64,000 nucleotides of DNA from Paraspadella gotoi. Its lineage: Eukaryota > Animalia > Chaetognatha. Of this stretch, positions 19,752-54,864 are shown piece by piece. Position 1 is the first letter of the stretch. The number at the start of each line of letters is the position of its first letter. The stretch spans positions 8,365,008-8,429,007 of the forward strand of contig CM119268.1 in the NCBI GenBank assembly GCA_051294375.1, read 5' to 3'. The position numbers and the translations under genes are program-made. Under the pieces are notes generated by a model that saw only the letters and a list, made by a program, of their open reading frames with translations, did no database searches and was not told the origin of the DNA.

Positions 19752-20882
19752 GCAAAAATTATATTTTAGGGTTGTTATAAAGTAAATATTACTATTATTG
19801 TTAATATTTAGTATTATTGTTATGTAGTATATAAGATGGATTAAACATCTTGAACAATTGGTCAGGATAGGAAAGGTTTATAAAAAAAATCCTTACGAGG
19901 CAGAAATACTATGTATAATGTATGTATTGTATATGTTGTAGTGTATATTATAAACTGACCAATAAGGCGGGCCGAAATTGGTCACTTTTTATCATTAGGA
20001 GTTATAAATATTATATATTATATATTATATAAATATAATATAAAATTAATTAGTCCGTCATATCCTTAATCAATATTTACTATCACTTTTTTAATAAATG
20101 AAGCACGGTATAACATTGAAGCATTTAAATATTTATCAATGCATAGGCAAGGAAAAATAATTGTTTTGATATATAAAGGAAAAACCCTCAAAAATCATCA
20201 TCATCATCATCATCATACCATAATTTTTATAGTTTTTCCTAATTTTAACCAATGAAACATAAAAATTTGAAAATCTTTTAATAATGTTTTTTATTTATTT
20301 TTTTAAGCTTTACCCGGACCCTTTTTTAAAAACTCTGTATTTGAAAAAAAATATTTTCATGATTTATAGTAAATACGATAAACGTTAAATGCTTAAATTT
20401 AAACATAAAATCTAATTTTTTTTTTTAAATTTCGTTATCCCTGTTATGCTCTATCGTTATTTATGAAATTGGTACAACCAATATAAAAATTATAAAAATA
20501 TATTACAGAACTCTTAGTTTTAACCTTGTTTCGCCTTATTGGGAATAAATCGAGTGAATAAAGGTTTCTCCAGTAAATCAGTCTATTTCAGTACAAAATA
20601 TATGAGTGGTATAACCAAGTCAAAAAATATATATATATACATCTGTGAAATCAGATTTTCCATATTACACGAATCAAAGTATTCCTTTTACAATCCGAGA
20701 AGCTCTAAAAATTTGTACAAATAATAATCCTTAATCGTTTAAATTAAATAAAACAGACACTGAGATAATAAGCTGAAGAATATTCCGATTCTAATGACCG
20801 AATTCAGTTAAAAAATGTTTTTTTTTCTTTAAGAAACTTTTTTTTCAGCCATAATTTTTTTTTGACACAAAGATCAAAAATC

Positions 20883-22184
20883 CTACACGAATATTGCAAT
20901 TATACGGAGCAAAAAAGCCCCGGCGACCAGGGTGACCTGAACCGGGATAGGTAACGTCGGTTCACAGGGCGGAGGGTGAGGCTCAGTTGGTCCAGGCTCG
21001 GTTGGTCCCGGCTTTGTCGGTTCGGGCGGAACGATCGACGGTACAACCGTTGTCACGTTATTCAATTGTGAATCGATCCAATCGTTGAACGGTTTCACAT
21101 CAACTACGACCGCGACATTTCCGTGCGACATCATCAAAATTCCATTCAATCTGGGACCATCGGCTCCGTAATTTACAACCCCTGACCCATAGTCCGTTGC
21201 TGGATTATGGTACATGGGCAGTGAGGCGCATTGAAACTCGTTCCCTAAATAAGCCGGGAGTGGACAGTATTTTCGTGGAAACAGACTACCCTTTGGAATT
21301 AGCGCCTTTCTCAGCATGTAAGAAGCTTCTTTTGCCAAGCCAAAACCCGTTGTCATGTATGACTTGCTCATAACCGCCAGCTCCGACGAGGGCGAGCGAT
21401 CTCGTTCGATTGGGTAAACGAAGGCGTTAAGTTGGAAAGGATAATAGGCCTTCAAAATTGTTAGTGGGTAATGGTGCACATGATTCCTTGCCAAAATTGA
21501 TTGCCTCGTACATTCCCAAATTGGATTGTCACGTAGAATGTGACCAGTGATGATGAGTGGTGTCTCCCAATAATTCAAAGGAATATAAGTAGTAAGAACG
21601 TGATATTCATCCAATAGAATGCCAGATTGGTGAGTCCCGTCGGACTTTTTCACGTTCACGTGCCAGGGCATTTCTCCCCTCCGAACAAGAGTTGGGTCCA
21701 AATATGTCGAGTTTTTCTTGTCTTCGGGAATTGGGGTTCTCAAATAGACCAATCGACATTCCCAGTCTTCTGGCATTGGGTCAACAGTAAATTTTTCTTT
21801 TATCCATTCTAGATGTCGGTCAATCCGGGTATAAAATGAAGTTTCGCCGCATCCAGATCCATTATTTGCGGTGGAGGCAATGCCCACTGCTACTGCTTTG
21901 CCCTCTTTAAAGATGGTCAAGGGCCCCCCTTCGTCGCCGATACAGGCGCCCCCTGCCTCAGATAAAACGCTGATCTTATCACTCATGTTTCGTCCGAGCG
22001 TCTCGTTTTGGAAGCTCGCATTCACAATTTCCACCATCTTCCCTTGCAAGCGGATAGGATTCATTACGGATGAGGGCAAGTTGTTTCCGTGCTGGTCTTT
22101 CAGTAACCATTGGCCAAAACCAGATATCCAACCTTTTTCGGGAAGTACCTTTGAAGTGAATTAAATTGAATTTAGATTTTTTCA

Positions 22185-22235
<51 letters not shown>

Positions 22236-22776
22236 AAAATATAAAGAATGGAAATTTAAAAAAAAAAACAAAACGCCGTTTTATTTAAATGTAGTTTTTA
22301 TTTATTTATATAAATTTTTCTGTCAAATACACATAAATATTTAATTCCCCCTGTTTCTTTTTACCGAAACCTTGTAGTGATAATACAGCGTGCACCTCAC
22401 TTTAATAATTGTTTTACCTTGTATTCTGCAACTTTGGATATTTATAGTCTGTTTTTGTTTTGCATATTTTTACTCTATTTTTTTTTTACCTTGTTTTCCA
22501 ATGGCGTACAAGCTGTCTGGACAAATGTATTCAAATTGAATTTTTCATGAGTTAAAACTGCAATATCATTTGAAAAGCCATCGAAGGCATGGTGGAGTTG
22601 AACGTTTATAACTGCAACTTTCTGCCGCGAGCATTCGCTAATTGATAAATCTCGGTAAATATGCCCGCCATATAATTTCCAATTTGTAATAAGGGATTTT
22701 GACTTCCAATCGTAGATGCAGTTAGCAGCTGTGAGTGATCGAGTGTCGTCCAGCAGTATTGCCCCGCATTTATTGT
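20883..22776 (-). CDS. Polyprotease exons 12-13: inactive A5 (TAANC, DIAVL, GDEGGP), B5, Pro/Thr stalk and hydrophobic tail
   Basis: Exon 22776-22490 translated by hand (KCGAILLDDTRSLTAANC...NDIAVL). ORF 20883..22079 ends PEPTKPGPTEPGPTEP...VTLVAGAFLLRIIAIFV*. Confidence 0.85.
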
Positions 22777-24483
22777 CTAAATAAGAAAACGTACTTACTA
22801 TAATACAAAGACTTTTGTGGCAATGTTAATTTTAAAATCTTTTTCGTCATTTTTCGTTCTAAAAATTCATATGAATTTTTGAGGTAAAAGAGTTGAAGTA
22901 TTTTATTAAGAAATCGAAGAGAAATTAAGACAAAGAAAGTTTTTTTTTTCAATTAGTATAATCACACCCTTAAAACATCCATAAATGATAAAGGTAAAAG
23001 TGACAGATTAATGTTTTATTATAGAGTAGAAAACCCAATAAAAAGCAACGTAAAAACGTAGTTTTTGACACTACAAACGAAATCGCTGCTATGTAAATGT
23101 AACATTCGAATTTAGCATACCTAAAGATAGTTGATAGGGGAATTGCCCGTGCTTTGCAGGCAAACCACCAATAATTCTTGTTTCTTTGTAGCTTCTTTCA
23201 CCACAAGTACCATTGAAAGGGTTAATACGATTGTTGGAGCAATCTGGCTGTATTATGGGTTGATTCTTCCTTTTGATAAAGTCAATCCAAAATTCAAGCT
23301 CAGGAGAACTCGTGTTTATAAAAGTGAAACTATTGTAATAATAAGAAGATCTTTTTAAAATTCCTACAAGAGTCGGAGGATTTGTTTCAAAATTAAAAAC
23401 GCCAGAACCTTTATCGATGCCAACTTCGCGAGGAATGGTTACATTTGTGCATATGTAATCGTTATTCCACAAGCATTTCCGGTCATTGACCAAATTAGAG
23501 TTTGATACTTCTATTGTTCGCAACATGTAAGAAATATCGGCGGCGATGTCAAAGCCGACCAATGTAAAAGTGCTCGGCAATTGTTGTCCTTGACAGCTCG
23601 GTTGAACAAAGTAATTTAAATCAAAAGGTTCTATCGTAAACAAAGAAAGCAGTGAATTATAGTTTTCTTTTTTCAGTACACGCTTGTTTTGGCCAGTGCA
23701 CCCTGCCAAATATGTATTTCTTACAATGTGTCCCGCTTGGATGTATAATGTTCTCCACTCATTAGAGTAATCATAAACGGTTAATACATGCCTGCTATCA
23801 ATCAGAACTCCTGATTGGATAATTTCACCGTAATAAAGGATGCTTACATGCCATGGAAATTGTCCTCTCAGCGCAATATTACTAATTTTTCCGCCATTAA
23901 ACGAGAAATTGTAAGAGTTTTCGTCACATGAGCTAAAATTGAAATAATTTTGTAAAGCTTTTGCGCATTCCTCCTCCGTTGGAAGCAGAGGTAATTGTGA
24001 CTCGATCTTGTCATTTATCCATTGCATTCTTGGCGCCACAGGTACAAATCGAGTGATTCCTCCACAACCGGATTCGACGGGCAGCGCGATGCCTACCAGT
24101 GTCGCATTTTCGTCTTCTATTTTTACGAGGGGCCCTCCTTCGTCGCCATAGCACAACCCTTTATCCTTGTCATTGTGACCCGCGCATAAAGTTGCCGAAG
24201 GGTTCGTTCCCAATAAAATTCCGCATTCAGTTTCATTATAAATTTGAACTTGAAGCGCTTGCAAACGATCGGGAATTCTATCAACCATGTTGACGTAGCC
24301 AAAGCTTTCAAGTGCTCTCAAATATTGTCCAAAACCGGTTATCCAACCGGCACCAGTATATTTCTAAATAAAAAAATGGTAAAGCAGAAAGATTAATAAT
24401 TAAATAGTTTTCATTTTTGATCTCCCAAATAGTTATTTCGTTTTATCGGTAAATTTAATAAATAATTGACCACTGACTACTAG

Positions 24484-24535
<52 letters not shown>

Positions 24536-27500
24536 TCTTAAGAGAATTAAAGTATTTGAACAGCAGCTGAAAGATCGGTTGTCATTTTGGTCTAACTTCT
24601 TGCATTCATCTATTTTTAATAGATTAAGGCGTAATATATGGTACCCTAATAACTTTTTAATTTTTAAAAAAATATTAATATTTTCTCACTTGTTCTGTTG
24701 TCGTGCAGATGGGCTGAACAAACAAATTGAATTTGATTTCTTCAGTTGTCAGAAGAGCAATGTCGCTTATATCTATATTCAGAACGCGGACCTTTTGCCT
24801 CGAGCATTCATCAGTTGATACATCCCTATAAAGGTTACCAGCATACAAATGTATCTGTGTTCTTAATTGAGAGCCGAGGTAAACGCAGTTTGGCGCAGTC
24901 AGGACATGGGTAGCATCCAAAATGACGCCTCCACAAAAATCCTCTAAAAGAAAGATATGTGAAATGTTTGATTAAAAAAAAAAGAAAATAAATAATTTAT
25001 TTTATCAGTACGAAAAAGAACGAGAGATAGAGAGAGGGAGAGAGAGATTCGAACCATGTACGTTAATTAGATAACATAAGAACTTGACTTTGGTTTTTTC
25101 CATTAAAACTAATTTCCACAGGCACGATTCCATCGAAACTTTATATCCCCTTCGTCACACAGTGTCCTACCTACACACAAAATTTCATCTCAATGTATCC
25201 ATCCTATTATGATTAATTCGAGTAATTATGGGTTAAATTTAGTAAAAAGAATTTAGTAAATGTGACTTATGTTTTTTTTCCATTTAAACTCATTTCCACT
25301 CGCTCGATTCCATCGAAACTTTATATTCAGCTTAAGCAAACATATTGCTACCCACACACAAAATTTAATTTCAATCCATTCATCCAATCACGAGTAATTG
25401 GAGTTTTTTGCTAACGGGGGACGGACAGACTGACAGACAGACAGACGGAGGGACGGACATCGTTTTTTGTTTTGCTTAATTATCATAATTCGAGGTTCTG
25501 ATATGATAAAAATGATTTACCGACAAGATTTTGGGGTGGGACCAACGGACCAACAAAGTGAACTATAGAGTCGGGATCTGCTGATTTATCAGCAGATCCG
25601 ACTAAAAAAAGTATTTTTCTATTATTATGAAAAAAATTTAAAACCTTATTGCTCTTGGTTTCGATTATATTCCAAGTTTTTTCTAATCACTCCAGATTTA
25701 ACTCCCTGTATGTAACTTTCACTACGCTCTATTGGTTACTTTCAGTCACATTGAAGCGCTTCGGTCACTCAGTAAGTCTTAAATCTACATTCAAGAAAGC
25801 AAGATTTTATGATCTAATTAATTCTTTTTTGTGGCTTGAATGAGGAAAATGTAAAGAGGAATGGCATGACAAAGAAGATAGCACGACGAGGAGAAAGGTC
25901 TGTCTTCTGTTCTAGGGAGTGAAAGTAATAAATACCGACTTACCAATTTGTATTTGATATGGAAATTGCTGATGAACAGCGTTTTCACCACGTCTTATAC
26001 GAGGCTCCCTGTAACTTCGTTTTCCACAAGTTCCATTATAGGGATTAAAGGATAAATTTTCGCAAATTGGTTTTATTGTGGGAGCGTCACGTGATAAAAA
26101 CCAATCAATCCAATCATTATAAAAAGTAATATCAATAACTGACCAAACGTAAGTATAAGTATAATAATCAATATGTTTAGATAAAAGTCCGACCAAAATA
26201 GGTGGGTCAGCATCATTCATCACTGCCGACCCACGATCTGATTCAAAATCACCAACAACCTTCACATCGGTACAAAAAAGATAATAATAATAACTATAGC
26301 AGTAGTTTACATTGGATACTTTCTTTTTTTTCAGTTCGTAGGAAATATCTGGAAGAATACTGAACCCTATTATGTTTATCGTATTTGGGAGGGTAGAATT
26401 TTTGTTACGCTTAACAGGTTGAACATAAATATTGAGTTCAAAGGGCTCTGTTGTTAAAACCGAGATCTTGCCGAGATCTATCGAATTCAAAACCTTTTTC
26501 TTTTGTCTGGTACATTCGTTAAGGGAAAAGTCGCACAAAACGTGACCAGCATAAACGTAATATTCATAAAAACTATAAAAATTGAAAGAAGCCGTAATTA
26601 CATGAGTTCTATCCATTAAAACCCCAGCGCGGTACAATTTTCCATCCCTTTCAATGTTGACATGCCAAGGAAATTCTCCTCTCTCTACTAAATCTTTATC
26701 CTGCGTTCTATTATATAATTTATTTGTGTCATTTATAGTCATGTTTGATGGAACTTTAACGAGTTGGCAATCTTCTTCTGTGGGCAGAGGAGATTTTTTC
26801 ATTTTTTTTTCAATCCATGATGAATAGTAAGAGATCGAAGTGTAATACAAAATGTCATTGCAACTTTCTGGCTTAGTTGTGGCAGAAGTTCCAACGAGAA
26901 AGGCGGTTTTGTTTTTAAAAATTATTAACGGACTTCCACCCTCTCCATAGCATGTTCCCTCATTTCTTTTCTGAATGCAAATATGACTAGTATTTCCACA
27001 AAAACTGTTATTTAGGATTTCAACTTCTATTCCCTGCAATCGAGCTCCTTCATATCCAAAAAAATTGTTTCCAAAGCTTGATATCAATCCATTGGAAGGT
27101 AAAACCTGAAAAATAAAATTAAGAAAAAAGTTTAAATCGGAGATGCAGACGCGACTAGAAACGCGCGGAGGCGCATGTTTTTTGAGGTTTTTGCCAAATT
27201 ATAACCTTTCTATTGTTCCAAAAATTTTTTTTTTTCAAATTTAAATACTGCTAAATTCTGAATCGTTTATCAGAAGCCATTGATTTTTTATTAACATATT
27301 TTTTATTCAAAAAGAAAATATTTCTCATTCTATTTATATTTATTTTATCTAATAAGTTGTTGTACATAAGCATATGGTGGACTAAAATCTCCCAACCGTT
27401 CATCAGCGGCTATTGGTGCCGGAGGCAAGTCATTTGCCTCCCAACCCAAAGGTCTGGGGTTCTTGCCCGGTGGCCGCCTAGTAGTTAAGACATCAGCGGC

Positions 27501-30500
27501 CATCTCTGTAATTGCGACGATCCTTATGCTTTAAGATTTTTTCAACTTGCATAATTTTTGGAAATTGCATCATTTTTTTACATTAATTAAAACATTTATT
27601 AGTAATCATAAATAATAAAGATTCAAGTAAATGTGACTCATATTTTTTTCATTTAAACTCATTTCCACTCGTACCGAAACTTTATATCAAGCTTCATCAC
27701 ACACTTTCCTACCCACACACGAAATTTGTACTCAATCTATCCATCCAATTATGATTAATTAGAGTATTTATTGGTTAAAATAAGTAAAAAGATTTTAGTA
27801 AATGCGACTTATGTTTTTTCCATTTAAACTCATTTCCACTCACACGATTCCATCGAAACTTTTTATCCAGCTTTATCGCACACTTTCCTACCCACACACA
27901 AAATTTCATTCCAATCCAACCGGGTAATCACGAGTTATTGCAGCTTTTGGCTAAGGTGGGACGGATGGACGGATTGATTGACTGATTAATCAATTATTGA
28001 TTAATTAATTGACTAATTGATTAATTAACTGATTAATTATTTAATTTATTAATACATCCTGCATATACATTTAATATAAAAAGAAAAAGAAGTATAATCA
28101 ATTTGTGAAACAGGTTTTTTGTTTTTTTCCATTTAAACTCATTTCCACTCAAACGATTCCATCGAAACTTGATTTCCTGTTCAATCACACACTTTCCTAC
28201 CCACATACAAAATTCCAGGTCAATCGCCGCATTCACTCATGAGCAATTGGTGTTCAAATAGTGAAATATATTTTTTTGTTTTTTCCATTTAAACTCATTT
28301 TCACTCGGACGATTCTATCGAAACTTCATATCCAGCTCAATAACACACTACCCTACCCACACGCAAAATTTTATTCAAATCCATCCATCCAATCACGAGT
28401 AATTGGTGTTTTTTGCATAATTTATCATAATTCGATGTTCTGACATGATATAAGTTAGTGCCCTACAATATTGAGGGGGCGGACCGACAGACCGACAAAG
28501 TGAATTATAGAGTCGGGATCTGCTGATAAGCAGATCTCGACGTATTATCCCATATTTATACATAGAAAATGTCAAAATTTTAAAATGTTTCTTCTTATTT
28601 TTTTGAAGGCAAATTCGAATTCATCACGAAAAGTTGACAAAAGGAAATATAACTTTAGAAAATTATTTCATTACAGGGGTCAAAACATAAAAAACTGTTA
28701 TAGCTATTAGCTAATCTATAATTAAATTTTATTAAAAAAATATATTTTTTTTAATTTTTAGCTAACTTATGAAAAAAATTTTGATTAAGACTTATATTTT
28801 CTTTTATCAACTTTTTATGAGGAATTCGAAGTGCTTTATTCTAGTATATAGAGTATTTTCCTAAATTATGAAATTGTTATAACCTTTTTACTAGTTATTT
28901 TAAGGGGGCAGCGAGGTTTCCAAGGCAATTTATTGCCCAAATTGCCCAAATTATGGTTTGCATTTTAAGTAAATTTTTGTTTTAATTGTTTCCCCACCCA
29001 AGTATTCATCTGGGTCCTAATTAGCCTAAGTGATACTAAACTTACTTCCTCACTAGTTTGAAGACAAGCCGGTTGGACGTATTTGTTGAGTTTACTAGTT
29101 TCAACAGTTAGGACAGCCATGCCTCCATCGCTGTACAGGTCCGAATAATTATGGTGAACATAAACATTTAGTACCCTTAACATTTGTCGAGAGCATTCAT
29201 CACGATAAAAATCACGATATATTGTTCCAGCGATAACATAAAAATTTTTTCTCAACTCCCCATTCTTAAAAACGCACGAAGCTGAAGTGACAGCATGATT
29301 TGGGCTTATGAGTGTTGCTCCACAACGTTCATCTAAAGACAAAGATACAGGGATATTGACGAATTGATTTTTTTTTTCATTCAGAATCATTTGGTAGGAA
29401 AGGGATCATTAAGGAGATTTTTCTAATTCGCCTTGATAACCTTAATTATTTTGCTAAAAACACTGGAATAAAAACACTAAGTTAATAAAACAAATGATTG
29501 GAGTTATGTAAGGGAGGAACTGTAGTATTTAGAAAAAAATCTAACCAAAAAGTTTAAGCGAAAAAAAAAATAGAAATAACTCGATTTTGGTAGATTATCA
29601 ATATATATTGTCACAAATTTCTTTAATTTCTAAAATAAGTTTTTAAAAATATTTATTTAATCCTTACAATATTTAATAAACAAATTTTCAGATTAAAAAT
29701 TTTAAAATGAGAGCAGCAATGAAAATGGCAATTAAAATACTATTCATAAATTTCATATTTCACATGATCCGTTATAGATTTAAAAGCTAATTTTTTAAAT
29801 ATAGCTCACCAATCAAAGTATACCATGGGTATTGCCCATGAATGCTATACGTGGTTGCGATATTAACAGAATCTGGATAATCTCTCAGGCCACAAGTGTT
29901 ATTGAATAGATTTACATCAATTTTTTCACAATTTGGAAAAATCTTTGGTCGATCTATTTCGATTACTAAGTCCATCCAAGGTTTGAATCTACTAATGCTT
30001 ATGATCCTGAAGTCATAAAAATTTTCTCCATTAAGCAAACCATAAAGAACAGGGGGATTTGTTGTAAAGTCTACAGCTGCCCCTCCTGTATCCTCAATAA
30101 GAGCATAGTTTGATCTAAAGTCAATACAAATAGCTTCTGTCATATATGGACAAGCGGACATGGATTCATTAAGGATTGTCCTTTTTCTTAACATGTAAGA
30201 TATATCGTCGGCAATGTTGAAACCAGCCAGAGTAAGAGAGGTATTTCGAGATGTTTTGTGGTAACATATGGGTTGTAAAAAATCATTTAGTTCAAAAGGC
30301 TCAACAGTCAACAGCTGTAACTCATAACCATTATAAAATATATTTCTTCTCTGTAATATTTGTCTCTTTTGCCGTGTACATTCGTCATTTTTAATGTCTT
30401 TTGAAATATGTCCTGCATAAACGTGTGTATAATAATAATAATAATACCTCGAATATGGCGATGTGGTCAGAATATGAGACTTATCAATCAAGACGCCTGA

Positions 30501-33500
30501 TTGAACTTGATTAAAATATTCAAAAATAGATACATGCCAAGGAAATTCTCCTCGATTAGCAAAGCCGGTCAAAATCGTCTCATTTTTAAGAGTTAAGTTC
30601 AGCGTATCATTCTTTCGAAACTTATAACTTTCAATATCGCACGTTTTATTGTAAGTTATGCCCTCCTTGGCTTGTTTACATTCCTCAGCAGTTGGTAAAA
30701 ATAACTCGGGGTTATCTATCCGTTGTTTCAGCCAAGGAAGAAAGAAAGCAACCGATGTGTAAAAACCTAAAGAGCCACAAAAGTCTCCCCCAGGAGTAGT
30801 GACCGCTGCTCCCGACGTGATTCCCAGTAAGGTTGCAGTATTTCCTTCAATTGTAACCAAAGGGCCTCCACTATCACCGTAGCAGGGCCCTTTACCTAGT
30901 TCTTTGTGTTTTATACATATTTTTCCCGTTGCGTTTCTCCCTGGTGTTTCATTCCTGCATCTTTGGTCCTCATAGATATCGACTTCTACATCCTGAAGTA
31001 CATCTGGTATTCCCGAATCATATATGTTATAATAATAGCGAGGATAATGCGTCCTTCCATATCCTGACACCCAGCCAGTGCTCGGCAATTTCTGTAAAAT
31101 AGGAAAAAACAAGTTTGAGCAAACAATGCCGGATCTGCCCACAATCATAAGCGGTAAGCAGCTGATCAGATAATTAATTAATTAATAAATCAATTATTCG
31201 CGTCAAAATCGTTTTTCAGTTTGTCTCGCCTCTCAATCAAAAAACAACAATCTCGATTACAAAATTATTTAATAAATTAATTAATTACAAAATAATGACT
31301 AATTAATTACTAATTTATCAATAATTAATTAATGCAGCTTGAAAAATTAAGGTAAATTTAACTTGTTTTTTTCCATTTTAACTCATTTCCACTTGAACGA
31401 TTCCATCGAGATTTGAATTCCTGCTCAACCACACACTTTTCTACCGACATAAAAAATTTCAAGCCAATCGCCCTAAACAATCATGAGTAATTGGCATTCA
31501 AAGATAACGGAGGTCGAATGGACGTCCATCCTTTCTTAGCTTGAAAAGCTAATAACTCATGAGTGGATTGGGCGATTAACTTGAAAGTTTGGGTAAAATC
31601 GATAAAATCGTTGAACTTGAAGTGAAAAAGAGTTTAGGTGGGAAAAACATAAATTACAGTTAACTATTTTTTTTTCTTTTTATGAAATGTAAATACTTGT
31701 TGTAACGACAACTACTACAATAATAACAAACATTACAACCACAACTACCACCACAACAACCACAACTACAATAACCACCAAAGACCATAACCTTCATAAT
31801 CACAATACTCCATAAACAAAACTATAAATTATAAATATTGTCTCTGATTGTTATGAATTTTATTAAATAAAAAAAGAAATTGCAAGATTAATCACAACTT
31901 ATCGTATGATCCACTGCTTTCCTCTAAATGCCCCCTTCAGTTCAGAATCGGAGTTCTTTACTCGAACTTGATTTAAATAAATATAAAGTGTAAATAAAAT
32001 TTTAAATTTGTCTTAAATCCAACTTGTATATATAATAAATAATGAAAAACATTATACTATTGGGCGAAATGCTATTCGAAGCCGCCTTACCGTATAACGG
32101 AGCAGCGAATATCTCTCGCTCTCTGGCTGGATGACTCAGAGTCAGGATCGGGATCATCAAAAATGACGATGGATTAATTGTTTAGTGTTTAGGTTAGGGA
32201 TAGGGTTAGGTTAGGGTATAGAGATTAGGGTTAGGGATAAGGGTTAGGGATTAGGGTTGTCTTTCCCTACGCAATTTTTATAAAAAATCTTAAAAGCAAA
32301 TATTGATGCGATGATAACCAAATATTGATGCGATGATAACCGAAGGATTGATGCGATGATAACCAAATGATGGATGGCGATGATAGTCATTCATTGATGC
32401 GATGATAGTCCTTCATTGATCGGATGATAATCATTCATTGATGCGATGATAGTCATTCATTGATGCGATGATAGTCATTCATTGATGCGATGCTAGTCAT
32501 TTATTGACGTGATGAGTTAATTAGAGAGAGAGAAAAGAGAGAGAGAGAGAGAGTTGATTGAGAGAGAAATATAGAGAGAATAATAAAATAATAATAAAAG
32601 TTTTTAGAAGGAAAAAAAAATCCACGAAAATCTCGGAAATAAATTTGGGGTTTTGTATTAAGAAAAAAGTGGCGTGATAAAAATAAAATTGTTTTATTAC
32701 AGTGTGATTAAGCATCAATTAACTTTCTATTTTTTTTTTTCAATTGAAATAAGACTGAAGTCTTTTGTTCATCTAGTTCAAAATGAGGTTGAAAACCTTA
32801 TTTTTTTGCATATTATTGAAAATGAATGAGATTGATATTGATTGTTTGAAATGAAAACTCGTCGCTATAAAGCTAAACTATTTTCAATAATAACGGTCAA
32901 AAAAATTATAATCTCTATTAACAAAATATATAGTTGACAATAATCAGTTAACGATTATGATATTTTTGACTTCCAAATATTTTTTTTACTTATTAAAAGA
33001 AATTTTATTTCCTCATCTTAAAAAATTTTAATCTTGAATGAAATTTTAGATTGTTATATTTTTATATTTATATATTATTTATATTAATCCTCGCAATTGC
33101 CGGATATATAGCAGGTATCGCCTACCTGTCACACAAGTTGATGTACATGTGACATTGTCTGCATTATATTTTTCCTTTTTTCTAAAATAAATTCACGAAA
33201 ATCTCGGATGTAAATTTGGGATTTTGTATTGAGAAAAAAAAATGGCGATAATAAGTTTTTAGAAGAAAGAAATAATAAGAATTTTCAAAAAACGAACGAT
33301 CGTACAGAGAGAGAGACAGAAAGACAGAGAGAGAGAGAGAGAGAGAGACAAAGCTGGACAGCTGCTGGAAGGCTGCTGTACAGTCACTGCAGAGCATGAA
33401 CACGTTGCAGAAAAAAAAAAAAAATATATATATATACTACTTATAATTTAAAGAAATAAAAGAAAGGCAAAAATATGTTACAATTGTTTACAATTGGAAA

Positions 33501-34454
33501 TTTTTCCAATTTTTTTTCAAACGCAGCTTGTAAAAGATTTTATTTTTATTTGTATTAAAATTAAGATATAGCTTCTCATTAAAAAGTTCCTTTGAGTTCC
33601 CATTTTTATTATAGATTTAAAAAATTTTTTTTGAATTTCATCTTCAATATTATATACTGCAATATGTAAATTTCTATATACTAATTTGGATACTATAATG
33701 AGTACTATAATCTCATTTGCATATTGCAGTAAATCAAAATGAAGTGGAAATTCAAACAAAAAAATACTTAAATCCAAATGTAATAAGAAAATATCAGAGC
33801 TATTTCAAGATGAGAAGCCATATCTAAATTTTTAACTTACTATGATCGCACACTTTTATAAAACTTCATCGTAATATATAATAATTTTTATTTAAAAAAA
33901 ACGGTAAGTCCAGCCAAAACTATAAAAGCGTAGTAGTTTTTATACAAAAAAGCGTGACGCGCCGACGACGACGACGACGACGTCACAAAGAAGCTGACCT
34001 GAATCAATATCGAGCCTGTCATGGCTCGATAAAAAAAATTCAGGTTTTTTGTCATGGCTCGATAAAAAAAATTCAGGTTTGCTGGGTGACTCTACTCGGT
34101 CAGGATCGGGATCGGCAGAAACGACGACGATAATTTGAACAATAGAGGAAGCAGTTGCGACGGTGAGAGCAACGACGAAGGGAGTGACGCATAAAGCGAC
34201 AATGAAAGCAGCAAAAGGGAAGAGTTTTGTGCGTATGTTTGAGTTCGCTGCTTCATAAGCCGCAGCAAGGGGGCTTCGATGGAAAAAAGTGCCCGCCCGG
34301 ACCAACTTGACCTTACGGTCTCCTCGGCCCTATTGCTTTGTCCGGTCAATCTAAGGTCATTGCCAAAGCTAGGGCAAAGTGACCGTGTGGATTGATCGGC
34401 TTGGAGAAAGAGGAGAGAGGAAGGGTTTAGAGTGAGAGACTGGTGGTAAGTCGC

Positions 34455-34537
<83 letters not shown>

Positions 34538-37500
34538 CATTTCAACTAGTAAATTTTCATTTTGATTTGCAAAATAAAGATTCGACTTGCAAAATGTCAT
34601 TTTAACTTACAAAATATCATTTTGACTTCAAAAATGTTAAGAATTGCAAACTATAAATTAGTATAATTTAGATTTGTGAAAATTACGGTATATCAGTTCA
34701 TTTATAATCCTTGAAAGCTGTACCTGGTTAATAGTTGGAAGACACGCTGCTTGTATATAAACATTTAGATCAAATTTTTCTACTTTCAACAGTGCAATGT
34801 CGCCGGTTATATCATAGTCCCCATAAAAATCAGGGTGAGGAATTGCGTCCAAGACTTTTCTTTTTTGGCGCGAACATTCATCGTATCTTATGTCAGTGTA
34901 CATGTGGCCTGCATACACATATAAATCAGTTGAAAGTGGTCCATAAGACCCCGGAATGCAATGAGCCGCAGTTAATACAAGAGTTTCGCTAATTATTACA
35001 GCACCACATATAATTGAGCCATCGCCTGAAAGAAAAAAATTTAAATAATTCTTCGTCGGATAACATATTGACCTTTTAGAAAAAGTTCATCAGCAATATC
35101 CACATGATAAGAAGTATTTTTTTCCGGTCAAGACTGAAATAATGTACCTACGGCTAAGGAGGCCTGCCAGGGATATTGGCCATATTTGGCTTCTCGTCCT
35201 CCAATTATTCTTGGTGCAATATAACTTCGTTGGCCACAGCTTCCATTGAAGGGGTTGTATTTTAGGAAATCGCAGTTGGGTATGCCTATTGCCTCTTCTA
35301 TATGAATTGTTTTGTCGATATGGTCATTAAATTGACTGATATCTACAGCAGATATGTTATGAAAAAGTTGTGGGAAAGTAAATCCCACGAAAGAAGGTGG
35401 ATCACTTTGAAAGTTGATCATCTCTCCAAAATCGTCGAAGTTGTGGTTAAATGGTACAGTGGAACAGATGAATTTAGGGGTAAATGGCTCGAAAAAGTTG
35501 AAAGAGTGTAAAGTGTTACAATTGTCAATGAAGCGTTCACTGGTAATGGATAATTTTTGCAAGAATGAAGACCTTTCCTTGAGGATTTGATAACCGGCTA
35601 CAACAGCTTCATTCAATATGACTGAAGAATTTCTACAAATCGGATTCACGAACGCATTCAACTCAAAGGGCTCTGTTGTTAATAAGGTCACTAATCCGCC
35701 TATGCTGAGGATTCTTAGGACCTTTCTTCTCTGACGAGTGCAGTCATCCCCGAACACGTTACTTGAAACTGTGCCAGCGTAAGCATACGTGACTTTTCCC
35801 CGAAAAATATAGCCTTCTATCAGCATATGTCTATCGTCAATCAACACGCCTGTATACATTAGGCCGTCAACGATCACTGTTGCATGCCAAGGAAATTCAC
35901 CCCTTGTTGCATAATCTAAGGAGTGGTTCTTGTTCAGAGGTGAAATATAACTTCCTGGTTCGCAGACTGAGGAGTTAAAGGCGGAATTATTGACGCGCTG
36001 ACATTCTGCTTCTGACAATAAAGGAGGTGAGGCTAGTATCTTTTTGATCCATGGACAATAGTAAGATAGGAAGTTGTAAATAACGGGACCTCCGCATTCA
36101 GAACCATTTAGCCTATTATATGAACCGATCACCGTCATGACACCGTCTTTAACGATATATAAAGGGCTGGCATAGTCGCCATAACACGCTCCTTTTTCGC
36201 CATCCTTGTGGATGACGCAGATTTGGGATTTTGTTGATCGACCTAATGGAAGAAGCACAATACAAACAATTTTCTCTTTTTGTCACATACTTTCTATAAA
36301 AAAAATCTATAAAATTTGATTAAAAATAAGAAATATACAAATTAAGTCTCTTGAAGTTGTATTCACATGCTTTTAAGTAAAATTATTGTATAAATTTCCT
36401 ATCTGAAATTTTTGTTTTTGTTTAAATAAATGATTAAACTTCAATATTAAAACCAGCAGAGAAATTAAATGGGATACCGAGAAAGCAACAAACCATACTA
36501 TAGAATACATGGAAAAAAAATAAATATAAACCTACATCTTTCATCATCCAAAAAATCCACTTCCAATGCCTGGAGCTCAGTGTTGTTGGAATCAATTAAA
36601 AAGCCAAAAGAGTTATTTGCTTTTTCCAAAGGTCCAAAGCCGGCAATCCATCCATTACGAGGGAGCTGAATTGATATTTTTGTTTTATAAAAAAGAATAC
36701 AATTTTTGAACCATTGATTTTACCCCTGGATAAAACTATATATCTTGCAATAGAGGATTAGTTAGAAATCTCTCTATTTATGAGTCTGAAAGGAATGTAT
36801 TTAAGATTGTTTTGGGCTCTGATTTGCACAGATTATGAAGATTTCAAGACCCAAGCGGTAAACATTTCGATTGTACATTGTTAAATTAATTTTTTGTAAT
36901 TTTTCACATGCTCAACTGTTCGTTCACACTTACGTCTGCTAAAGTGAGATTGCATTCGGGTAGACAGGCCCGTTGCACAAAATCTGTGAAATCGAAAGGC
37001 TCGACGACGAGAATGGCGACGTCGTGATAGATGCGCAAAATATTTTCATAGTAATCGTATTCTGTGCGAAATTCCGGGTGAACATAGACGCCCAGGACCT
37101 TCCGCTCCTGACGAGAACATTCGTCGGCCGTGACATTCCGTAATATATTTCCGGCGTAGACTCTCGCGTGAGCAAAATTGTTCCTGGAATATTAAGACTT
37201 GTTTTTGTTTTTATTTTTGGTGTGTGGTTTTTTTTTTTTTTTTTTTAAATTTCTGCGCTACTTCTCAGTTTAAACACGTTAGTTACTAAAACCTTTGGGA
37301 CAAAACCTTATGGGTACTTACACGTCCAATAGAATAGGACAGGACGCCCCAGTGAGCACGAACTGTCGATCGATGATTGTCCCGCCACATTGATTGCCTG
37401 ACTCAATAAAAGAAAAAAAACAATTACAACACTTTTCGTCTAATTTAATTGAATTAGTAGGCTGGGACTATTGAGAATTTTTTAAATCGAATTTTCTCTT

Positions 37501-38039
37501 AAGACTTATAACAAATTTTGAAAATGTAGGCGCCATATTTAAAAAGCTAGCAGATAAGTTGGCAGAAACTGACAATGGAATTTTTTTTTTTTTCCCCACT
37601 TTTCTTTAAGATTTTCAACGAAGTCGATCTCGCCTTTTTTTTATTTGGGGGGGGGGGATTGTTACTTTTCCCTCCCACGCGACAGACTTTATGCCTCCGA
37701 GTCGAAATCAAAATAAAAGTCCTAAATTCAGTCATAACATATATTAACATAATTCCACCGACTCGACACGAGTTAAACACCTCGATCGACCCCCTCACCG
37801 TCGTCGTCGATGAAGAGGGCGTTGGAGGGAAATTCCCCCGGCATCGCCGCCCGTCCGCCGACGATTCTGGCTCGGGGAAAGACGCGGCGCCCGCAGCTGC
37901 CGGCGCCGAACGGATCGGAGAAAGCGTCGCAGACGAGGCCGGAGTCCTGCGCCAGCGTCGTCGCCGCTTGAAGGAGCAAAAGCAGCAGCAGCGCTGCGGG
38001 CTGCTGTTGCCGAGTCCACGTTCCGCCGAATCGAGTCAT
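20883..38039 (-). CDS. Multi-domain S1 serine protease/pseudoprotease polyprotein (10 trypsin-fold domains; signal peptide; C-terminal hydrophobic anchor), 13 exons, 2624 aa
   Basis: Exons 38039-37799, 37397-37322, 37183-36934, 36665-36536, 36242-35148, 35025-34724, 31091-29810, 29332-29046, 27105-25944, 24943-24690, 24363-23121, 22776-22490, 22148-20883. All introns are GT-AG, the phases are consistent throughout, and the exons total 7875 nt. Motifs seen: RIVGG/RIIGG, GxFPW, CGG/CGA, TAAHC-like, DIALL-like and GDSGGP-like, repeated five times. Confidence 0.85.
23121..24943 (-). CDS. Polyprotease exons 10-11: inactive A4 (TAPNC, DIALL, GDEGGP) and B4
   Basis: ORFs 24675..24920 and 23089..24321, with splice sites at 24943/24690 and 24363/23121. 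Confidence 0.85.
25090..25606 (-). mobile_element. HINE-like element, 3'-truncated copy (protease intron 9)
   Basis: Reverse complement of the 5' palindrome (25569-25603), (GACA/GGAC)n and internal tandem units matching 16294-16760. Confidence 0.7.
25944..29332 (-). CDS. Polyprotease exons 8-9: inactive A3 (TSASC, GGMAVL, GEGGSP) and B3
   Basis: ORFs 28965..29390 and 25912..27087, with splice sites at 29332/29046 and 27105/25944. Confidence 0.85.
27406..27478 (+). other. tRNA-like sequence (pseudo-tRNA or SINE head)
   Basis: Acceptor-like stem GCGGCTA/TGGCCGC, T-arm CTGGG-GTTCTTG-CCCGG and an A-box-like TGGTGCCGGAGG. The D and anticodon stems are imperfect (loop CTCCCAA). Confidence 0.4.
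27620..28543 (-). mobile_element. HINE-like element(s): one copy plus an adjoining partial copy with extra internal tandem units (protease intron 8)
   Basis: 5' palindrome at ~28510-28541 and several copies of the CATTTAAACTCATTTCCACTC...CACACTTTCCTACCCACA unit. Confidence 0.68.
29810..35025 (-). CDS. Polyprotease exons 6-7: catalytically intact domain A2 (TAAHC, DIALL, GDSGGP) and degenerate domain B2
   Basis: Exon 35025-34724 encodes ICGAVIISETLVLTAAHC...GDIALLKV. Exon 31091-29810 encodes GWVSGYG...GKGPCYGDSGGPLV and then RGEFPWHV (B2). Confidence 0.87.
31104..31680 (-). mobile_element. Diverged HINE-like element, 3' portion, abutting the acceptor of protease exon 7
   Basis: AACAAGTTTGAGCAAACAATGCCGGATCTGCCC is the reverse complement of the family 3' end; degenerate internal units lie at 31370-31640. 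Confidence 0.65.
32181..32258 (+). repeat. Degenerate telomere-like (TTAGGG)n tract
   Basis: GGTTAGGGATAGGGTTAGGTTAGGG...TTAGGGTTAGGGATAAGGGTTAGGGATTAGGG. Confidence 0.7.
32301..32515 (+). repeat. ~22-bp minisatellite, about 10 copies
   Basis: Unit ATTGATGCGATGATAGTCATTC; the 5' variants end in ...GATAACCAAAT. Confidence 0.85.
34017..34080 (+). repeat. ~33-bp tandem duplication
   Basis: TGTCATGGCTCGATAAAAAAAATTCAGGTTT twice. Confidence 0.8.
35148..37397 (-). CDS. Polyprotease exons 2-5: inactive domain A1 (TGASC, DVAIL, GDYASP), degenerate domain B1, propeptide of A2
   Basis: Manual translation of exons 37397-37322, 37183-36934 and 36665-36536 plus ORF 35128..36258, which ends CGQRSYIAPRIIGGREAKYGQYPWQASL. 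Confidence 0.82.
37799..38039 (-). CDS. Polyprotease exon 1: signal peptide, propeptide and R|IVGG activation site
   Basis: MTRFGG...AALLLLLLLQAATTLAQ (signal-like), then CDAFSDPFGAGSCGRRVFPRARIVGGRAAMPGEFP, followed by a G|GTGAG donor. Confidence 0.85.
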
Positions 38040-38595
38040 GATTTATTTTTAGAGGATCCCGTAATAGTTTTTTTTTTTTTTTTTTTTTTTTATCTGTGAT
38101 TGAGCAAGTTTTTAACGATCCGATTCAAAACTACACTATGTCAAAGCGACCTTTGAAAATTAAAACAAAAATTAATAATAATTAATAATTGGTCGGCCCG
38201 TCAACGAGTGGGGCAGACGATGTATGTATGTATGTATGTATGTATGTATGTATGTATTTATGTATGTATATCTATGTATGTATGTCTATGTATGTCTATT
38301 ATTATTAGTACATACGTAATACGTAATAGGAGGAAAGGAAAGAAAGGGAAAGAAAAGAAAGGAAAACAAAGGACAACAAAGGAAAAGAAAGAAAAGAAAA
38401 GAAAAGAAATGGAAAGTAAAGGAAAGGAAAAGAGGACAGTTGTGGTATCCTTTTTCCTAAATGATCCCAAAGACAAAAATGTTATAATACTCAAACTTCG
38501 TTAAAGAGAAATTTCAATGGAGATAAGGAAGAAACGAGATGTGAAAAATCCCGTCGGGTCTGAGTCCGTCTGACACAATTTTCGAGTACATTTAT

Positions 38596-39619
38596 TAGTC
38601 GGATCTGCTTAAGGGGACCAAGTGACCAGGGAGGGTAAAAAGCTGAAAACATAACCTTTGACCCTCTAACTTAGGCTGGTTCTGACCATATAATTTTTTC
38701 TTCTATAATCATTTGGGCTTAAAAAATTCGATAAAATCAGCTAGCTTAATTTTTTTTTTTTAAATCGGTAAGAAGAAAATCTTTTTCAAGTTTAAAATTT
38801 TGTTTTCGCAAAAAAGGGTAAGATCTTATTTAAAAAGATTTTCAGCTTTTATTACAAAAATTTATAAGAAAAAAAACTAGGAATGAATCGACTGATTTTA
38901 TTTAAACTTTCTTGTCAAATGATTTGGTTAATTGGATAAAAAATAAAACTCTTTGAAGTAATATAAAATAAAAAAAAAAGAAAAAGATTCTGTACTTTTG
39001 CTAAATTTTTAATTGTTATAATTAGGATCATAATATAGTATAATAATACATTTAAGGGATGAATATGAATATTAATTAATAATTATTACAATTTTTGTTT
39101 CTGTAAGAATAGAATTTAGGTTTGATTTGTTTGCTTTAAAGTAAATATAAAAATAAAAAATATTAGTCTTATAAAAAGGCTTTTGTTCAATAAGGCTTAA
39201 CCCAAAAATTGTAGCTTTGTACAGTAAAAAAATAAAAATTTGGAATTTAGTAAAAATATTTCTAATGCAAAAATAAAATAATGGATAATATTTAGGTAGG
39301 GTCAACTAAATTTTTTTTCATAATTATTAAATTTTTGTTTCCGCTACAATAAGAGAATATGATTTTTTTTGCCACTTTCCATGCAAAAAAAAATTAATGA
39401 CTATCACCATTAAATTCCTTTGATGATAGACCCTTAAGCTTATGATATCATTTTTTATCACTGGGTCCCTTAACAGCAGATCCCGACTCTATAATTCACT
39501 TTGTCCGTCCGTCGGTCCGCCCCCTCAATCTTGTCGGGAATTCACTTAATCATGTCAGAAACATCGATTATGATATCATTATGATATCATTATGCAAAAA
39601 AATATTATGTCGTCCATCC

Positions 39620-39654
<35 letters not shown>

Positions 39655-40387
39655 ATCCGTCCCGTCCATTTTTTCAAAAAACTTCAATTACTCGTGATTG
39701 GAAGGATGGATTGGAAATGAAATTTTGTTGTGGGTAGGGAAGTGAGTGATTGAGCTGGATATAAAGTTTCGATGGAATCGTGCGAGTTAGTGAAAATTAG
39801 TTTAAATGGAAAAAAACAAACAAAATTATTTTCACTATTTGAACGCCAATTACTCGTGAGTGGATGGGGGGATTGACCTGAAATTTTGCATGTGGGTAGG
39901 AAAGTGTGTGATTAAGCTGGAAATCAGGTTTCGATGGAATCGTGAGAGTGGAAATGAGTTTAAATGGAAAAAACAAAACCTGTTTCACTAATTGATTATG
40001 CTTTAAATTAAATGCAAGATGTATTGATTAATCAATTAATTAATTAGTTGACTAATGAATTAGTCAATTAATCAATCAATAATTAATTAATCGAAAAATT
40101 AATTATTCAATCAATTAATTTATTTATCTATTAATCAATTAATTCAAATAAATCGATTTATTTACAATTAATTATTTAATATCAATCAATCAATCAAACA
40201 ATCAATCAAGTCAATCGTTATCGCATATTTTTCGTCGTCAGCATCATCGTCGTCGTTGCTTTTGTCGTGGTCAGTGACGAAAAGATCCAAAAACAAACAT
40301 TTCGGATCAAATAAATTAATTTATTAATTAATTACCCGCTAATGATCCTGGCGCAGATCCGACATTGTTTGCTCAAACTTGTTTTTT
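38596..40387 (+). mobile_element. HINE-like element interrupted in its 5' palindrome by a MITE
   Basis: TAGTCGGATCTGC at 38596 resumes as CAGCAGATCCCGAC at 39474. The 3' end GCAGATCCGACATTGTTTGCTCAAACTTGTTTT is at ~40353-40387. Confidence 0.72.
38613..39469. mobile_element. Non-autonomous TIR DNA transposon (MITE) with TTAA target duplication, Kolobok-like termini
   Basis: TTAA(38609-38612)|GGGGACCAAGTGA ... TCACTGGGTCCC|TTAA(39470-39473). Removing it restores the HINE palindrome. The interior is AT-rich and non-coding. Confidence 0.75.
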
Positions 40388-41381
40388 AACTGCGTCATGT
40401 CTAGAAAAAAAAAATCGCCCAATTACGTTGAAATCACAAGATCGCATAATTTTATAGAGAGAGAGGACGAGAAACTTGTTAAGAAGATCTCAAATAAAAG
40501 GGAAAATAATTTAAGGTCTTTTTTTTTTTTATTAATTTAATTGATTTACAAATGGAAAAAAAAACTTGTTCTCGAATTCACGCCTGCCGTTTGGCAGCTT
40601 ATAGTTTTAGTTTTTCTCCCCCAAGATTCCGATCTCAAGTTTTTTCCCCAGTAACCGCTAAACCACTTCCCTCGCCCGCCCGCGCGCCGCTTTCCGCCGC
40701 CGCCGGCCGCCGCCCCTGCCCTCATTCAACTGAACGTTTGAATGCCACCGTCGCGCTCTCTGTAGTTGGCGTTAAATCGCCGGTGCCCTCGTTCTTTTGT
40801 TTGCGTTGGGAACCAATATTCAAAGATAAAAACGACGTGGCGCGGACGAGGCGCTCGCGTGGGCGCCATCTCTTAATGGCCGCCTACGGAATTTTTGAAA
40901 GCTCTGTCAACAAAGAAGCGGAACTGATATAACGCCGAGCGATAGCGGGTTTTTTTTTTTTTCTCTCCTCTCTCTTTTTTTTTTTTTTCTATGTTTTATT
41001 AAATCGTGAAGAGATGTTTTTGAAATTCGGGGAGGGCTGCCATGGCTGCGAGGGGCTGNNNNNNNNNNNNNNNNNNNNNNNNNNNNNNNNNNNNNNNNNN
41101 NNNNNNNNNNNNNNNNNNNNNNNNNNNNNNNNNNNNNNNNNNNNNNNNNNNNNNNNNNNNNNNNNNNNNNNNNNNNNNNNNNNNNNNNNNNNNNNNNNNN
41201 NNNNNNNNNNNNNNNNNNNNNNNNNNNNNNNNNNNNNNNNNNNNNNNNNNNNNNNNNNNNNNNNNNNNNNNNNNNNNNNNNNNNNNNNNNNNNNNNNNNN
41301 NNNNNNNNNNNNNNNNNNNNNNNNNNGAATTATGATATCATTATGATATCATTATGCAAAAAATATATATGTCCGTCCATC

Positions 41382-41413
<32 letters not shown>

Positions 41414-42801: not shown

Positions 42802-43095
42802 CCGAGATTAATGTTTACTACACTGGATATTTGAGGAATGAAACAAATTACAACTCGAAATGAAATTTCGAAATTTCGAAATGAAACGTCAAGTTGTGAA
42901 AGGAAGTGGGACAAATTGAATAAAATAATATTTTGTATACAAAGTAGGAACGAACCGAAAGGAGGAGATTAAAGAAAGAACAGTTTTAAAAAAAGAATAT
43001 GTAGAAGAATAAAAAAGGTAGAAAAAAAAACAATTATAAAAATTACATTAATAATAACAATGAAAATAATGGCAATAATAATTATAATAATAATA

Positions 43096-43185
<90 letters not shown>

Positions 43186-51214: not shown

Positions 51215-51290
<76 letters not shown>

Positions 51291-53475: not shown

Positions 53476-53524
<49 letters not shown>

Positions 53525-54781: not shown

Positions 54782-54864
<83 letters not shown>

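What the first reader, a model, noticed from the sequence alone, without database searches (positions are those of the whole stretch)
20883..38039. Ten-domain, membrane-tethered S1 polyprotease with a single catalytically intact domain among nine pseudoproteases
Seen in sequence: the separate protease-like ORFs of the track join, with matching splice phases at all 12 introns, into one 2624-aa chain. The architecture is signal peptide, (propeptide-A domain-linker-B domain) x5, Pro/Thr stalk, hydrophobic tail. Triad status: A1 S/D/Y, A2 H/D/S (intact), A3 S/G/G, A4 N/D/E, A5 N/D/E; all five B domains lack the TAAHC and GDSGG motifs. Established knowledge: known S1 polyproteases such as vertebrate polyserase-1/2/3 and ovochymase have about 2-3 protease domains, and non-catalytic serine protease homologues act as cofactors or binding modules in arthropod cascades. 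Inference: this could be a self-contained 'enzyme plus cofactor/decoy array' on a cell surface. I do not recognise an alternating A/B x5 architecture.
Basis: partly seen in the sequence, partly recalled or inferred. Interest (0 to 1): 0.85.

Follow-up and report, generated by a model that had tools for sequence, protein, structure and literature searches.

The report
Ten-domain protease, one intact active site
An animal gene, likely transcribed as one message, encodes a 2,624-residue chain of ten predicted trypsin-fold domains of which only one keeps its catalytic residues; it likely works on a cell surface as one enzyme carried among nine dead binding modules, an independently evolved extreme of the known multi-protease proteins (polyserases).

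Summary
Observation confirmed. Thirteen minus-strand exons joined by 12 GT-AG introns give one 2624-aa chain. All introns lie inside A domains, so separate genes are excluded. The five B segments are degenerate S1 folds (profile match 99.4%; weak model matches only chymotrypsin-type folds). Only A2 has His/Asp/Ser, with a non-trypsin pocket. A and B form two clades: a fivefold duplication of an A-B pair. Paired cysteine losses indicate folded domains. The membrane anchor is inferred only. Novelty is lower than claimed: 11 of 135 long relatives retrieved carry 8-18 S1 domains, e.g. gar (14 domains, 2 intact) and seadragon (10, 6 intact); they are unrelated in origin and I found no paper on them. 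The scan earlier noted a giant all-active sea-urchin array on other DNA. No B-type relative was found. New variant of the polyserases; function untested.

The parts
37799..38039 (-). Exon 1: ATG, predicted signal peptide (aa 1-30, 37950-38039), propeptide with two Cys, activation site RAR|IVGG of A1
   Evidence: signal peptide judged by hydropathy only
36031..37865 (-). A1, S1 pseudoprotease (aa 59-303; triad S/D/Y), exons 1-5
35299..35928 (-). B1, degenerate S1 domain (aa 338-547), wholly in exon 5
   Evidence: alone it did not reach Pfam Trypsin
30717..35208 (-). A2, the only domain with an intact triad (aa 578-823): His619 at 34961-34963, Asp673 at 34799-34801, Ser772 at 30870-30872; activation site APR|IIGG; Gly at position 189; exons 5-7
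29955..30578 (-). B2, degenerate S1 domain (aa 870-1077), wholly in exon 7
   Evidence: Pfam Trypsin 22.0 bits, Atlas 0.97, model and fold searches
26797..29864 (-). A3 pseudoprotease (aa 1108-1324; S/G/G; no activation site), exons 7-9
26089..26706 (-). B3, degenerate S1 domain (aa 1355-1560), wholly in exon 9
   Evidence: no Pfam hit alone; on the spliced contig
24001..25998 (-). A4 pseudoprotease (aa 1591-1814; N/D/E; EPR|IRRG), exons 9-11
23266..23892 (-). B4, degenerate S1 domain (aa 1851-2059), wholly in exon 11
   Evidence: Pfam Trypsin 22.8 bits
21789..23175 (-). A5 pseudoprotease (aa 2090-2323; N/D/E; ETR|IIGG; has lost both Cys of the 168-182 pair), exons 11-13
21063..21704 (-). B5, degenerate S1 domain (aa 2352-2565), wholly in exon 13
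   Evidence: Pfam Trypsin 16.4 bits, under the cut-off; Atlas 0.96
20943..21062 (-). Pro/Thr-rich stalk (aa 2566-2605) with a lone Cys 27 residues from the end
20883..20942 (-). C-terminal hydrophobic tail (aa 2606-2624) and stop codon; candidate GPI signal or tail anchor
   Evidence: the stop region is covered by a contig with no differences
38040..38091 (-). Inferred 52 nt of 5' untranslated sequence ending in a 24-base homopolymer

Best explanation
This is one spliced gene for a likely secreted and likely surface-anchored polyserase-type zymogen, built by fivefold duplication of a two-domain block, in which a single predicted protease (A2) is carried among nine catalytically dead trypsin-fold domains that likely act as binding and spacer modules. 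Shown: the open chain, the triad states, two domain clades, the same two intron positions in all five A domains and none in the B domains. The repeated block is flanked by phase-1 introns, so it could be copied without a frameshift. Inferred mechanism: a separate trypsin-like protease cuts after Arg at the starts of A1, A2, A4 and A5. A2 has Gly189, not Asp, so it is unlikely to activate itself. Each domain is predicted to stay tied to its own propeptide by one or two disulfides (the usual Cys1-Cys122, missing in B3 and B5, and a subfamily-specific bond from a first propeptide Cys to the Cys of the 'CxRQ' loop), so the cut chain would stay one covalent array of about 296 kDa plus glycans. A2 then likely cleaves after small or medium hydrophobic residues. 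The cut but dead A domains would switch to a binding-competent shape, as cleaved pseudoproteases such as the HGF beta chain do (recalled). The uncut B domains would hold substrate or partner and space A2 away from the membrane.
For: Open 2624-aa chain, 12 of 12 GT-AG introns. Spliced contig across exons 9-13 and exact length match for the rest. Phase-1 and phase-0 introns at the same two places in A1-A5. A clade 98/93 and B clade 100/100 in a 38-row tree. B profile vs 17 ordinary S1 proteins: probability 99.4%, E 5.5e-22, 201 aligned columns. B2 folded from an alignment of B1-B5 alone: all listed Foldseek matches are S1 proteins, best Z 11.3, rmsd 3.3, 168 aligned. Cysteine ledger: first propeptide Cys plus CxRQ-loop Cys in 10 of 10 modules; Cys1 and Cys122 lost together in B3 and B5, Cys168 and Cys182 together in A5, Cys42/58 and Cys191/220 in 5 of 5 B. 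Arg|Ile sites kept at 4 of 5 A domains, three of them dead. Closest relatives are unnamed proteins with the same propeptide and extra Cys: P0009 is active domain (Gly189) + dead domain + Thr stalk + hydrophobic end; P0031 also ends so, and both have a Cys 26-27 residues from the end. Human polyserase-2 keeps three domains in one chain with only the first active (PMC1435904, abstract and passages).
Against: No activity, location or partner was tested. A2 has Gly at 215 (Trp in most S1 enzymes), Ala at 216 and an insertion in the 220 loop, so it may be weak or need induction. The tail has an internal Arg and no textbook omega site (the candidate is Cys-Glu-Pro), so the protein may be released or secreted. 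Singly, only 2 of 5 B domains reach the Pfam Trypsin cut-off, and the one B model is poor (mean pLDDT 47.9, pTM 0.48). Disulfides are inferred from paired presence and loss. A4's new N-terminus would be IRRG, which may not insert normally.
Confidence: 0.55

Rival explanations
1. Structural or adhesive surface glycoprotein: the ten folded domains serve as a beaded, heavily glycosylated coat or matrix rod, and A2 is vestigial or only matures the coat.
For: Nine of ten domains dead; 43 N-glycosylation sequons; B2 and B3 are Tyr-rich (8.2 and 9.2% against a mean of 3.4%, maximum 6.8%, in 17 ordinary S1 proteins); A2 has unusual residues at 215-216.
Against: A2 keeps the whole triad, its IIGG start and all five disulfide pairs although the domains are only 33-40% identical to one another, which suggests selection on catalysis; activation sites are kept.
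Confidence: 0.22
2. Decoy shield: the dead domains soak up protease inhibitors (from prey, microbes or self) and so protect A2 or other proteases at the surface.
For: A dominant-negative role for dead polyserase domains is proposed in PMC11172050 (passage, citing a review). In contig 3 of X1, 12 of 13 differences fall in 247 nt of B5, 8 codons changing the residue and 2 silent, as a contested binding surface might show.
Against: B domains have lost Cys191-220, Cys42-58 and the activation site, so an inhibitor-binding cleft is doubtful; the cluster of differences may be a haplotype switch in one contig.
Confidence: 0.15
3. Polyprotein: the chain is only a precursor that is cut into separate secreted domains, as reported for polyserase-1.
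For: Four Arg|Ile sites; polyserase-1 releases three units (PMC1435904, abstract).
Against: Each propeptide before an A domain carries two Cys whose partners lie in that domain, which would hold the pieces together; A3 and all B domains have no site.
Confidence: 0.06
4. A cluster of separate protease genes, or an artefact of assembly or of the reader's joins.
Against: Each long exon carries the end of one A domain, a whole B domain and the start of the next A domain in one frame; all introns fall inside A domains; a spliced contig crosses units 3-5; the ten domains are 17-40% identical, so they are not mis-assembled copies.
Confidence: 0.02

Closest known systems
Human polyserase-2 (PRSS36) and polyserase-3 (PRSS53); PMC1435904, abstract and passages
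   Same: Signal peptide followed by tandem S1 domains that stay in one chain; in polyserase-2 only one of three is active; glycosylated.
   Different: Two or three domains against ten; described as secreted with no anchor; the active domain is the first, here the third; no alternating pair of domain types. Not placed in my trees.
Polyserase-1 / TMPRSS9 (P0241 human, P0192 frog)
   Same: Several S1 domains in one membrane-bound chain with cleavable activation sites.
   Different: Type II N-terminal anchor with SEA/LDLa domains, three domains, units released; groups far from the window's domains.
Uncharacterised giant S1 arrays in database gene models: spotted gar XP_069044036.1 (P0002, 14 domains, 2 intact), seadragon P0303 (10, 6 intact, hydrophobic C-terminal end), Pelobates P0304 (11, 8), cunner P0152 (18, 17), Oikopleura P0317 (11, 2), Anopheles dirus P0322 (9, 5)
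   Same: Eight or more S1 domains in one predicted chain with no other Pfam domain of note, often partly dead, some with signal peptide and GPI-like end.
   Different: Separate origin (99/96 branch); the fish domains are recent near-copies of an ordinary trypsin-type domain (mostly Asp189); best score of any long protein against the B profile 32 bits; some may be merged gene models. No paper on them turned up in my searches.
Unnamed two-domain relatives P0009 and P0031, and fragment P0286 (ENA)
   Same: Same propeptide motifs, same extra Cys in the CTxQ loop, Thr stalk, hydrophobic C-terminal end with a Cys 26-27 residues from the end; P0009 is an active Gly189 domain followed by a dead one.
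   Different: Two domains as recorded (P0031 looks cut at its start), both A-like; no degenerate B type; organism not named.
Insect polypeptidases and Nudel (Tenebrio, PMC11172050 passages; Ostrinia, PMC10036332 Table 2)
   Same: Chymotrypsin-like active domain plus dead homologues in one chain, presumed to stay disulfide-linked.
   Different: Two or three domains separated by Sushi or LDLa modules; none found here.
GPI-anchored prostasin/testisin-type proteases (as described in PMC11172050, passage)
   Same: Hydrophobic C-terminal extension without a cytoplasmic tail.
   Different: Single trypsin-type domain; here ten domains, a Gly189 pocket and an atypical omega region.

Membership tests
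Peptidase family S1A (chymotrypsin fold) | Two-barrel chymotrypsin fold in A domains | tested here: met
   Pfam Trypsin on the exon pieces of A2-A5 (E 1e-7 to 1e-22), weaker for A1; PDB sequence hits
Peptidase family S1A (chymotrypsin fold) | Same fold in B domains | tested here: met
   Profile-profile 99.4% over 201 columns; PDB profile hits E 4e-7; Atlas 0.97 and 0.96 for B2 and B5; low-confidence B2 model matches S1 folds. B1 and B3 are supported only through the B profile (leave-one-out 173 and 220 bits)
Peptidase family S1A (chymotrypsin fold) | His57/Asp102/Ser195 triad | tested here: met
   1 of 10 domains (A2)
Peptidase family S1A (chymotrypsin fold) | Proteolytic activity | not testable with these tools
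   needs expression and assay
Polyserases (architectural class) | Two or more S1 domains translated from one ORF | tested here: met
Polyserases (architectural class) | Enters the secretory pathway | tested here: inconclusive
   signal-like N-terminus by hydropathy only; no predictor available
TMPRSS9 / polyserase-1 orthology | Type II anchor, SEA/LDLa domains, domains grouping with TMPRSS9 | tested here: not met
   no such Pfam domains on 12 exon pieces; tree
PRSS36 / PRSS53 orthology | Domains grouping with polyserase-2 or -3 | not tested
   these proteins were not among the sequences fetched
Ovochymase, Nudel, Sushi- or clip-type arthropod SP/SPH | CUB, LDLa, Sushi or six-Cys clip modules between or before S1 domains | tested here: not met
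   inter-domain segments are 28-46 aa with one or two Cys; no Pfam hits
Fish/amphibian giant S1 arrays (gar P0002, seadragon P0303, Pelobates P0304) | Common origin of the repeated domain | tested here: not met
   separated by a 99/96 branch (long branches present) and
GPI-anchored S1 proteases | C-terminal hydrophobic stretch without cytoplasmic tail | tested here: met
GPI-anchored S1 proteases | Small-residue omega site 20-30 residues from the end | tested here: inconclusive
   only candidate is Cys2598-Glu-Pro; a Cys at the same distance in P0009 and P0031; omega rules recalled, no predictor run

The most novel reading that the evidence does not exclude
A lineage-specific, cleavage-switched surface machine: each A-B pair is a unit in which the degenerate B domain is a dedicated, new kind of trypsin-fold binding module, one outside trypsin-like cut re-shapes four A domains at once while double disulfide tethers keep the 296-kDa array whole, and a single non-trypsin active site works on a substrate gathered by nine pseudoprotease domains. 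It would be the first transcript-supported example of a giant, mostly dead S1 array, a design that databases suggest arose several times but that I found no study of.
Probability: 0.25. Interest if true: 0.72.

Novelty: new variant of a known kind. Interest (0 to 1): 0.46.

Why it matters
Why several protease domains are kept in one chain is called unclear in the polyserase literature (PMC1435904, passage). The papers I read describe two or three domains. Here the ratio is nine dead to one intact, the array is old (domains 17-40% identical), its splicing is partly shown, and its history is legible: a phase-symmetric two-exon block copied five times. It gives a clean test of what pseudoprotease domains do in cis (cut or not, with or without neighbours), and it shows that giant S1 arrays in databases are not all merged gene models. 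The B domains are a trypsin-fold module with no relative detected in the searches. Interest is held down because similar sizes exist as predictions elsewhere and no function or tissue is known.

Tried and rejected
No whole genome is held for this window, so paralogues and the gene family in this organism could not be counted. Single-sequence AlphaFold of exon 7 failed (pLDDT 30.6) and was not searched. A word-index search with exon 7 among proteins of 747-2130 aa gave one weak generic hit of 4107 candidates; a 2624-aa orthologue lay outside that range. The exhaustive search with exon 7 over 1.84 billion representatives listed no B-type relative among its best 150; the best score of 294 stored proteins against the B profile was 44.5 bits, against 131-220 for the window's own B domains left out in turn, and 32.2 among 135 long proteins. 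P0002 looked like an orthologue by E-value (1.7e-122), but this is the sum over 14 generic domains; rejected by tree. No listed run is on record as RNA; X1 is a guess by the tool, and X2 and X3 (other organisms) covered only a microsatellite. Poly(A)-signal scan found only distant candidates, about 580-600 nt past the stop. The one complex prediction (C-terminal half of A2 with B2; a poorly chosen pair, as A2 is split by introns) gave no answer, score 0.00. Ten paper searches found no description of this layout or of S1 chains with more than three domains; most subscription journals are not in the library and I opened no supplements, where domain tables of genome papers could list such proteins. 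An arrow-worm single-nucleus preprint (10.1101/2025.01.31.635879, three passages) has no mention of trypsin in its main text. Look-ups of earlier findings by sequence gave nothing. I could not test the lineage.
Full report
Observation. The region holds a series of minus-strand open frames with trypsin-like motifs. Motif spacing divides it into ten domains, A1-B1 to A5-B5. Against a profile of 17 ordinary S1 proteins the triad columns read S/D/Y, H/D/S, S/G/G, N/D/E and N/D/E for A1-A5; no B domain has His57 or Ser195.

One chain, not a cluster. All 12 introns lie inside A domains: a phase-1 intron just before the first cysteine and a phase-0 intron just after Cys122 in each of A1-A5, plus two more in A1, and none in B domains. 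Each long exon therefore carries the end of one A, a whole B and the start of the next A in one frame, which leaves no place for separate starts. One run of three listed holds the stretch (72% of sampled words; its RNA status is a guess). Laid on 20300-27400, one 7755-nt contig covers exons 9-13 in consecutive contig coordinates and skips the modelled introns (three joints listed with CT..AC ends, the fourth seen as adjoining pieces). It has 3715 nt before exon 9. The model has 3663 nt of coding sequence there, and 52 nt more end exactly at the far edge of a 24-base homopolymer, a natural break for an assembly graph; 7703 + 52 = 7755. A short-read contig is not one molecule.

B domains. Singly they are weak: Pfam Trypsin passes its cut-off for 2 of 5 (B2, B4), is under it for B5 and absent for B1 and B3. 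As a profile they align end to end with ordinary S1 proteins (99.4%, E 5.5e-22) and hit S1 structures. Atlas features give trypsin-family clusters for B2 and B5 (0.97, 0.96). B2 folded from B1-B5 alone is a poor model (pLDDT 47.9), but the listed Foldseek matches are all S1 proteins (32 with E up to 0.001) and the wide structural search gives chymotrypsin-type folds throughout its 50 rows (best Z 11.3, rmsd 3.3, 168 aligned). Cysteines come and go in pairs: Cys42/58 and Cys191/220 are lost in 5 of 5 B; Cys1 and Cys122 together in B3 and B5; Cys168 and Cys182 together in A5; a first propeptide Cys and a Cys in the CxRQ loop are kept in 10 of 10 modules. Since A1's own propeptide has both cysteines, these belong to the domain that follows. 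This pattern indicates folded domains; the bonds themselves are inferred.

Origin. A domains are 33-40% identical to one another, B domains 27-40%, A to B 17-27%. In a 38-row tree A (98/93) and B (100/100) are each one side of a branch, and the window's domains, four domains of three unnamed ENA proteins and P0101 are cut off from the other 23 rows, including gar, seadragon, frog, tunicate and mosquito arrays, by a 99/96 branch (single-matrix model, long branches flagged). A 101-row quick tree that also held TMPRSS9 and ovochymase agrees. With the shared intron positions, this gives a fivefold tandem duplication of an A-B block bounded by phase-1 introns. The unnamed relatives share the propeptide motifs and the extra loop cysteine; P0009 is active domain, dead domain, Thr stalk and hydrophobic end, a plausible ancestral layout. 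An earlier unreviewed note (e1-10588039) calls the genome very likely an arrow worm; I did not test this.

Mechanism. A1, A2, A4 and A5 start after Arg (RAR|IVGG, APR|IIGG, EPR|IRRG, ETR|IIGG); A3 and all B do not. A2 has Gly189, Ala216 and Gly226 by my reading of the alignment, a non-trypsin pocket by the standard S1 rules (established knowledge), so activation most likely needs another, trypsin-like enzyme. Disulfides to the propeptides would keep the cut chain whole. That three dead A domains keep their cut sites suggests the cut matters for binding, as in cleaved pseudoproteases (recalled). I therefore favour a surface-anchored enzyme whose dead domains gather substrate or partners and act as spacers (0.55), over a structural coat (0.22), an inhibitor decoy (0.15), a released polyprotein (0.06) or separate genes (0.02). 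Against it: Gly215 and a loop insertion in A2, an atypical anchor signal, and no data on tissue or activity.

Comparison with what is known. Polyserases-1, -2 and -3 have two or three domains, and polyserase-2 has one active domain in an uncut chain (PMC1435904, abstract and passages). Tenebrio polypeptidases have two or three with Sushi or LDLa modules (PMC11172050, passages). Triple-trypsin proteins arose several times in animals (PMC6767649, passages). PMC10036332 (four passages) lists no such array. Databases go further: of 135 stored proteins of 1300 aa or more, 11 have 8-18 S1 domains; intact triads by column are 2 of 14 in gar, 6 of 10 in seadragon, 2 of 11 in Oikopleura, 8 of 11 in Pelobates, 17 of 18 in cunner, 5 of 9 in Anopheles dirus (truncated domains count as not intact). 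Some of these may be merged gene models (inference). So size and a dead majority are not unique. What I found nowhere else is the strict alternation with a second, highly degenerate domain type, for which no relative was detected.

Verdict. Real and largely transcript-supported; a new variant of the polyserase kind with an independent origin; function untested. Interest 0.46.

Noticed in passing
window 21055-21301 (B5, C-terminal half): The X1 contig differs from the window at 12 sites in these 247 nt (8 codons change the residue, 2 are silent) but at only 1 site in the other 3793 exonic nt it covers; a second contig adds 3 residue changes in the stalk and tail. A divergent haplotype block or diversifying selection on B5.
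   Followed up: partly
window 37378-46589 and 47183-54784: About 9 kb is repeated at about 91% identity with far more indels than mismatches, beside N gaps; the second copy holds a frameshifted copy of exon 1 near 47600-47850. Likely an assembly duplicate from unpolished long reads rather than a pseudogene.
   Followed up: partly
window 4557-8241, minus strand: A C2H2 zinc-finger gene in several exons (Pfam zf-C2H2); its motifs look like INSM1/nerfin (name recalled, not tested).
   Followed up: partly
window 58187-59197, plus strand: Open frame with acidic and Ser-Pro-Thr-Arg repeats that ends in what looks like the start of a calmodulin-type EF-hand (recalled); Pfam gives only a weak PT repeat.
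   Followed up: no
window 25040-25750, and similar copies near 27600-28500, 31360-31650 and 39450-40000: A dispersed intronic repeat with several internal copies; contigs of X1 pile on it to a summed depth of tens of thousands, so it is a very abundant element, possibly a SINE-like family.
   Followed up: no
B1-B5 (for example window 29955-30578): All five B domains keep Asp194 and Gly196 around a lost Ser195 although they have no activation site; B2 and B3 carry Tyr-rich loops.
   Followed up: partly
P0002, P0152, P0303, P0304, P0317: Database gene models with 10-18 tandem S1 domains in gar, cunner, seadragon, spadefoot toad and Oikopleura, for which my paper searches found no description.
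   Followed up: partly
window 37799-38039: Exon 1 is 68% G+C against 35-53% for the other twelve exons.
   Followed up: no
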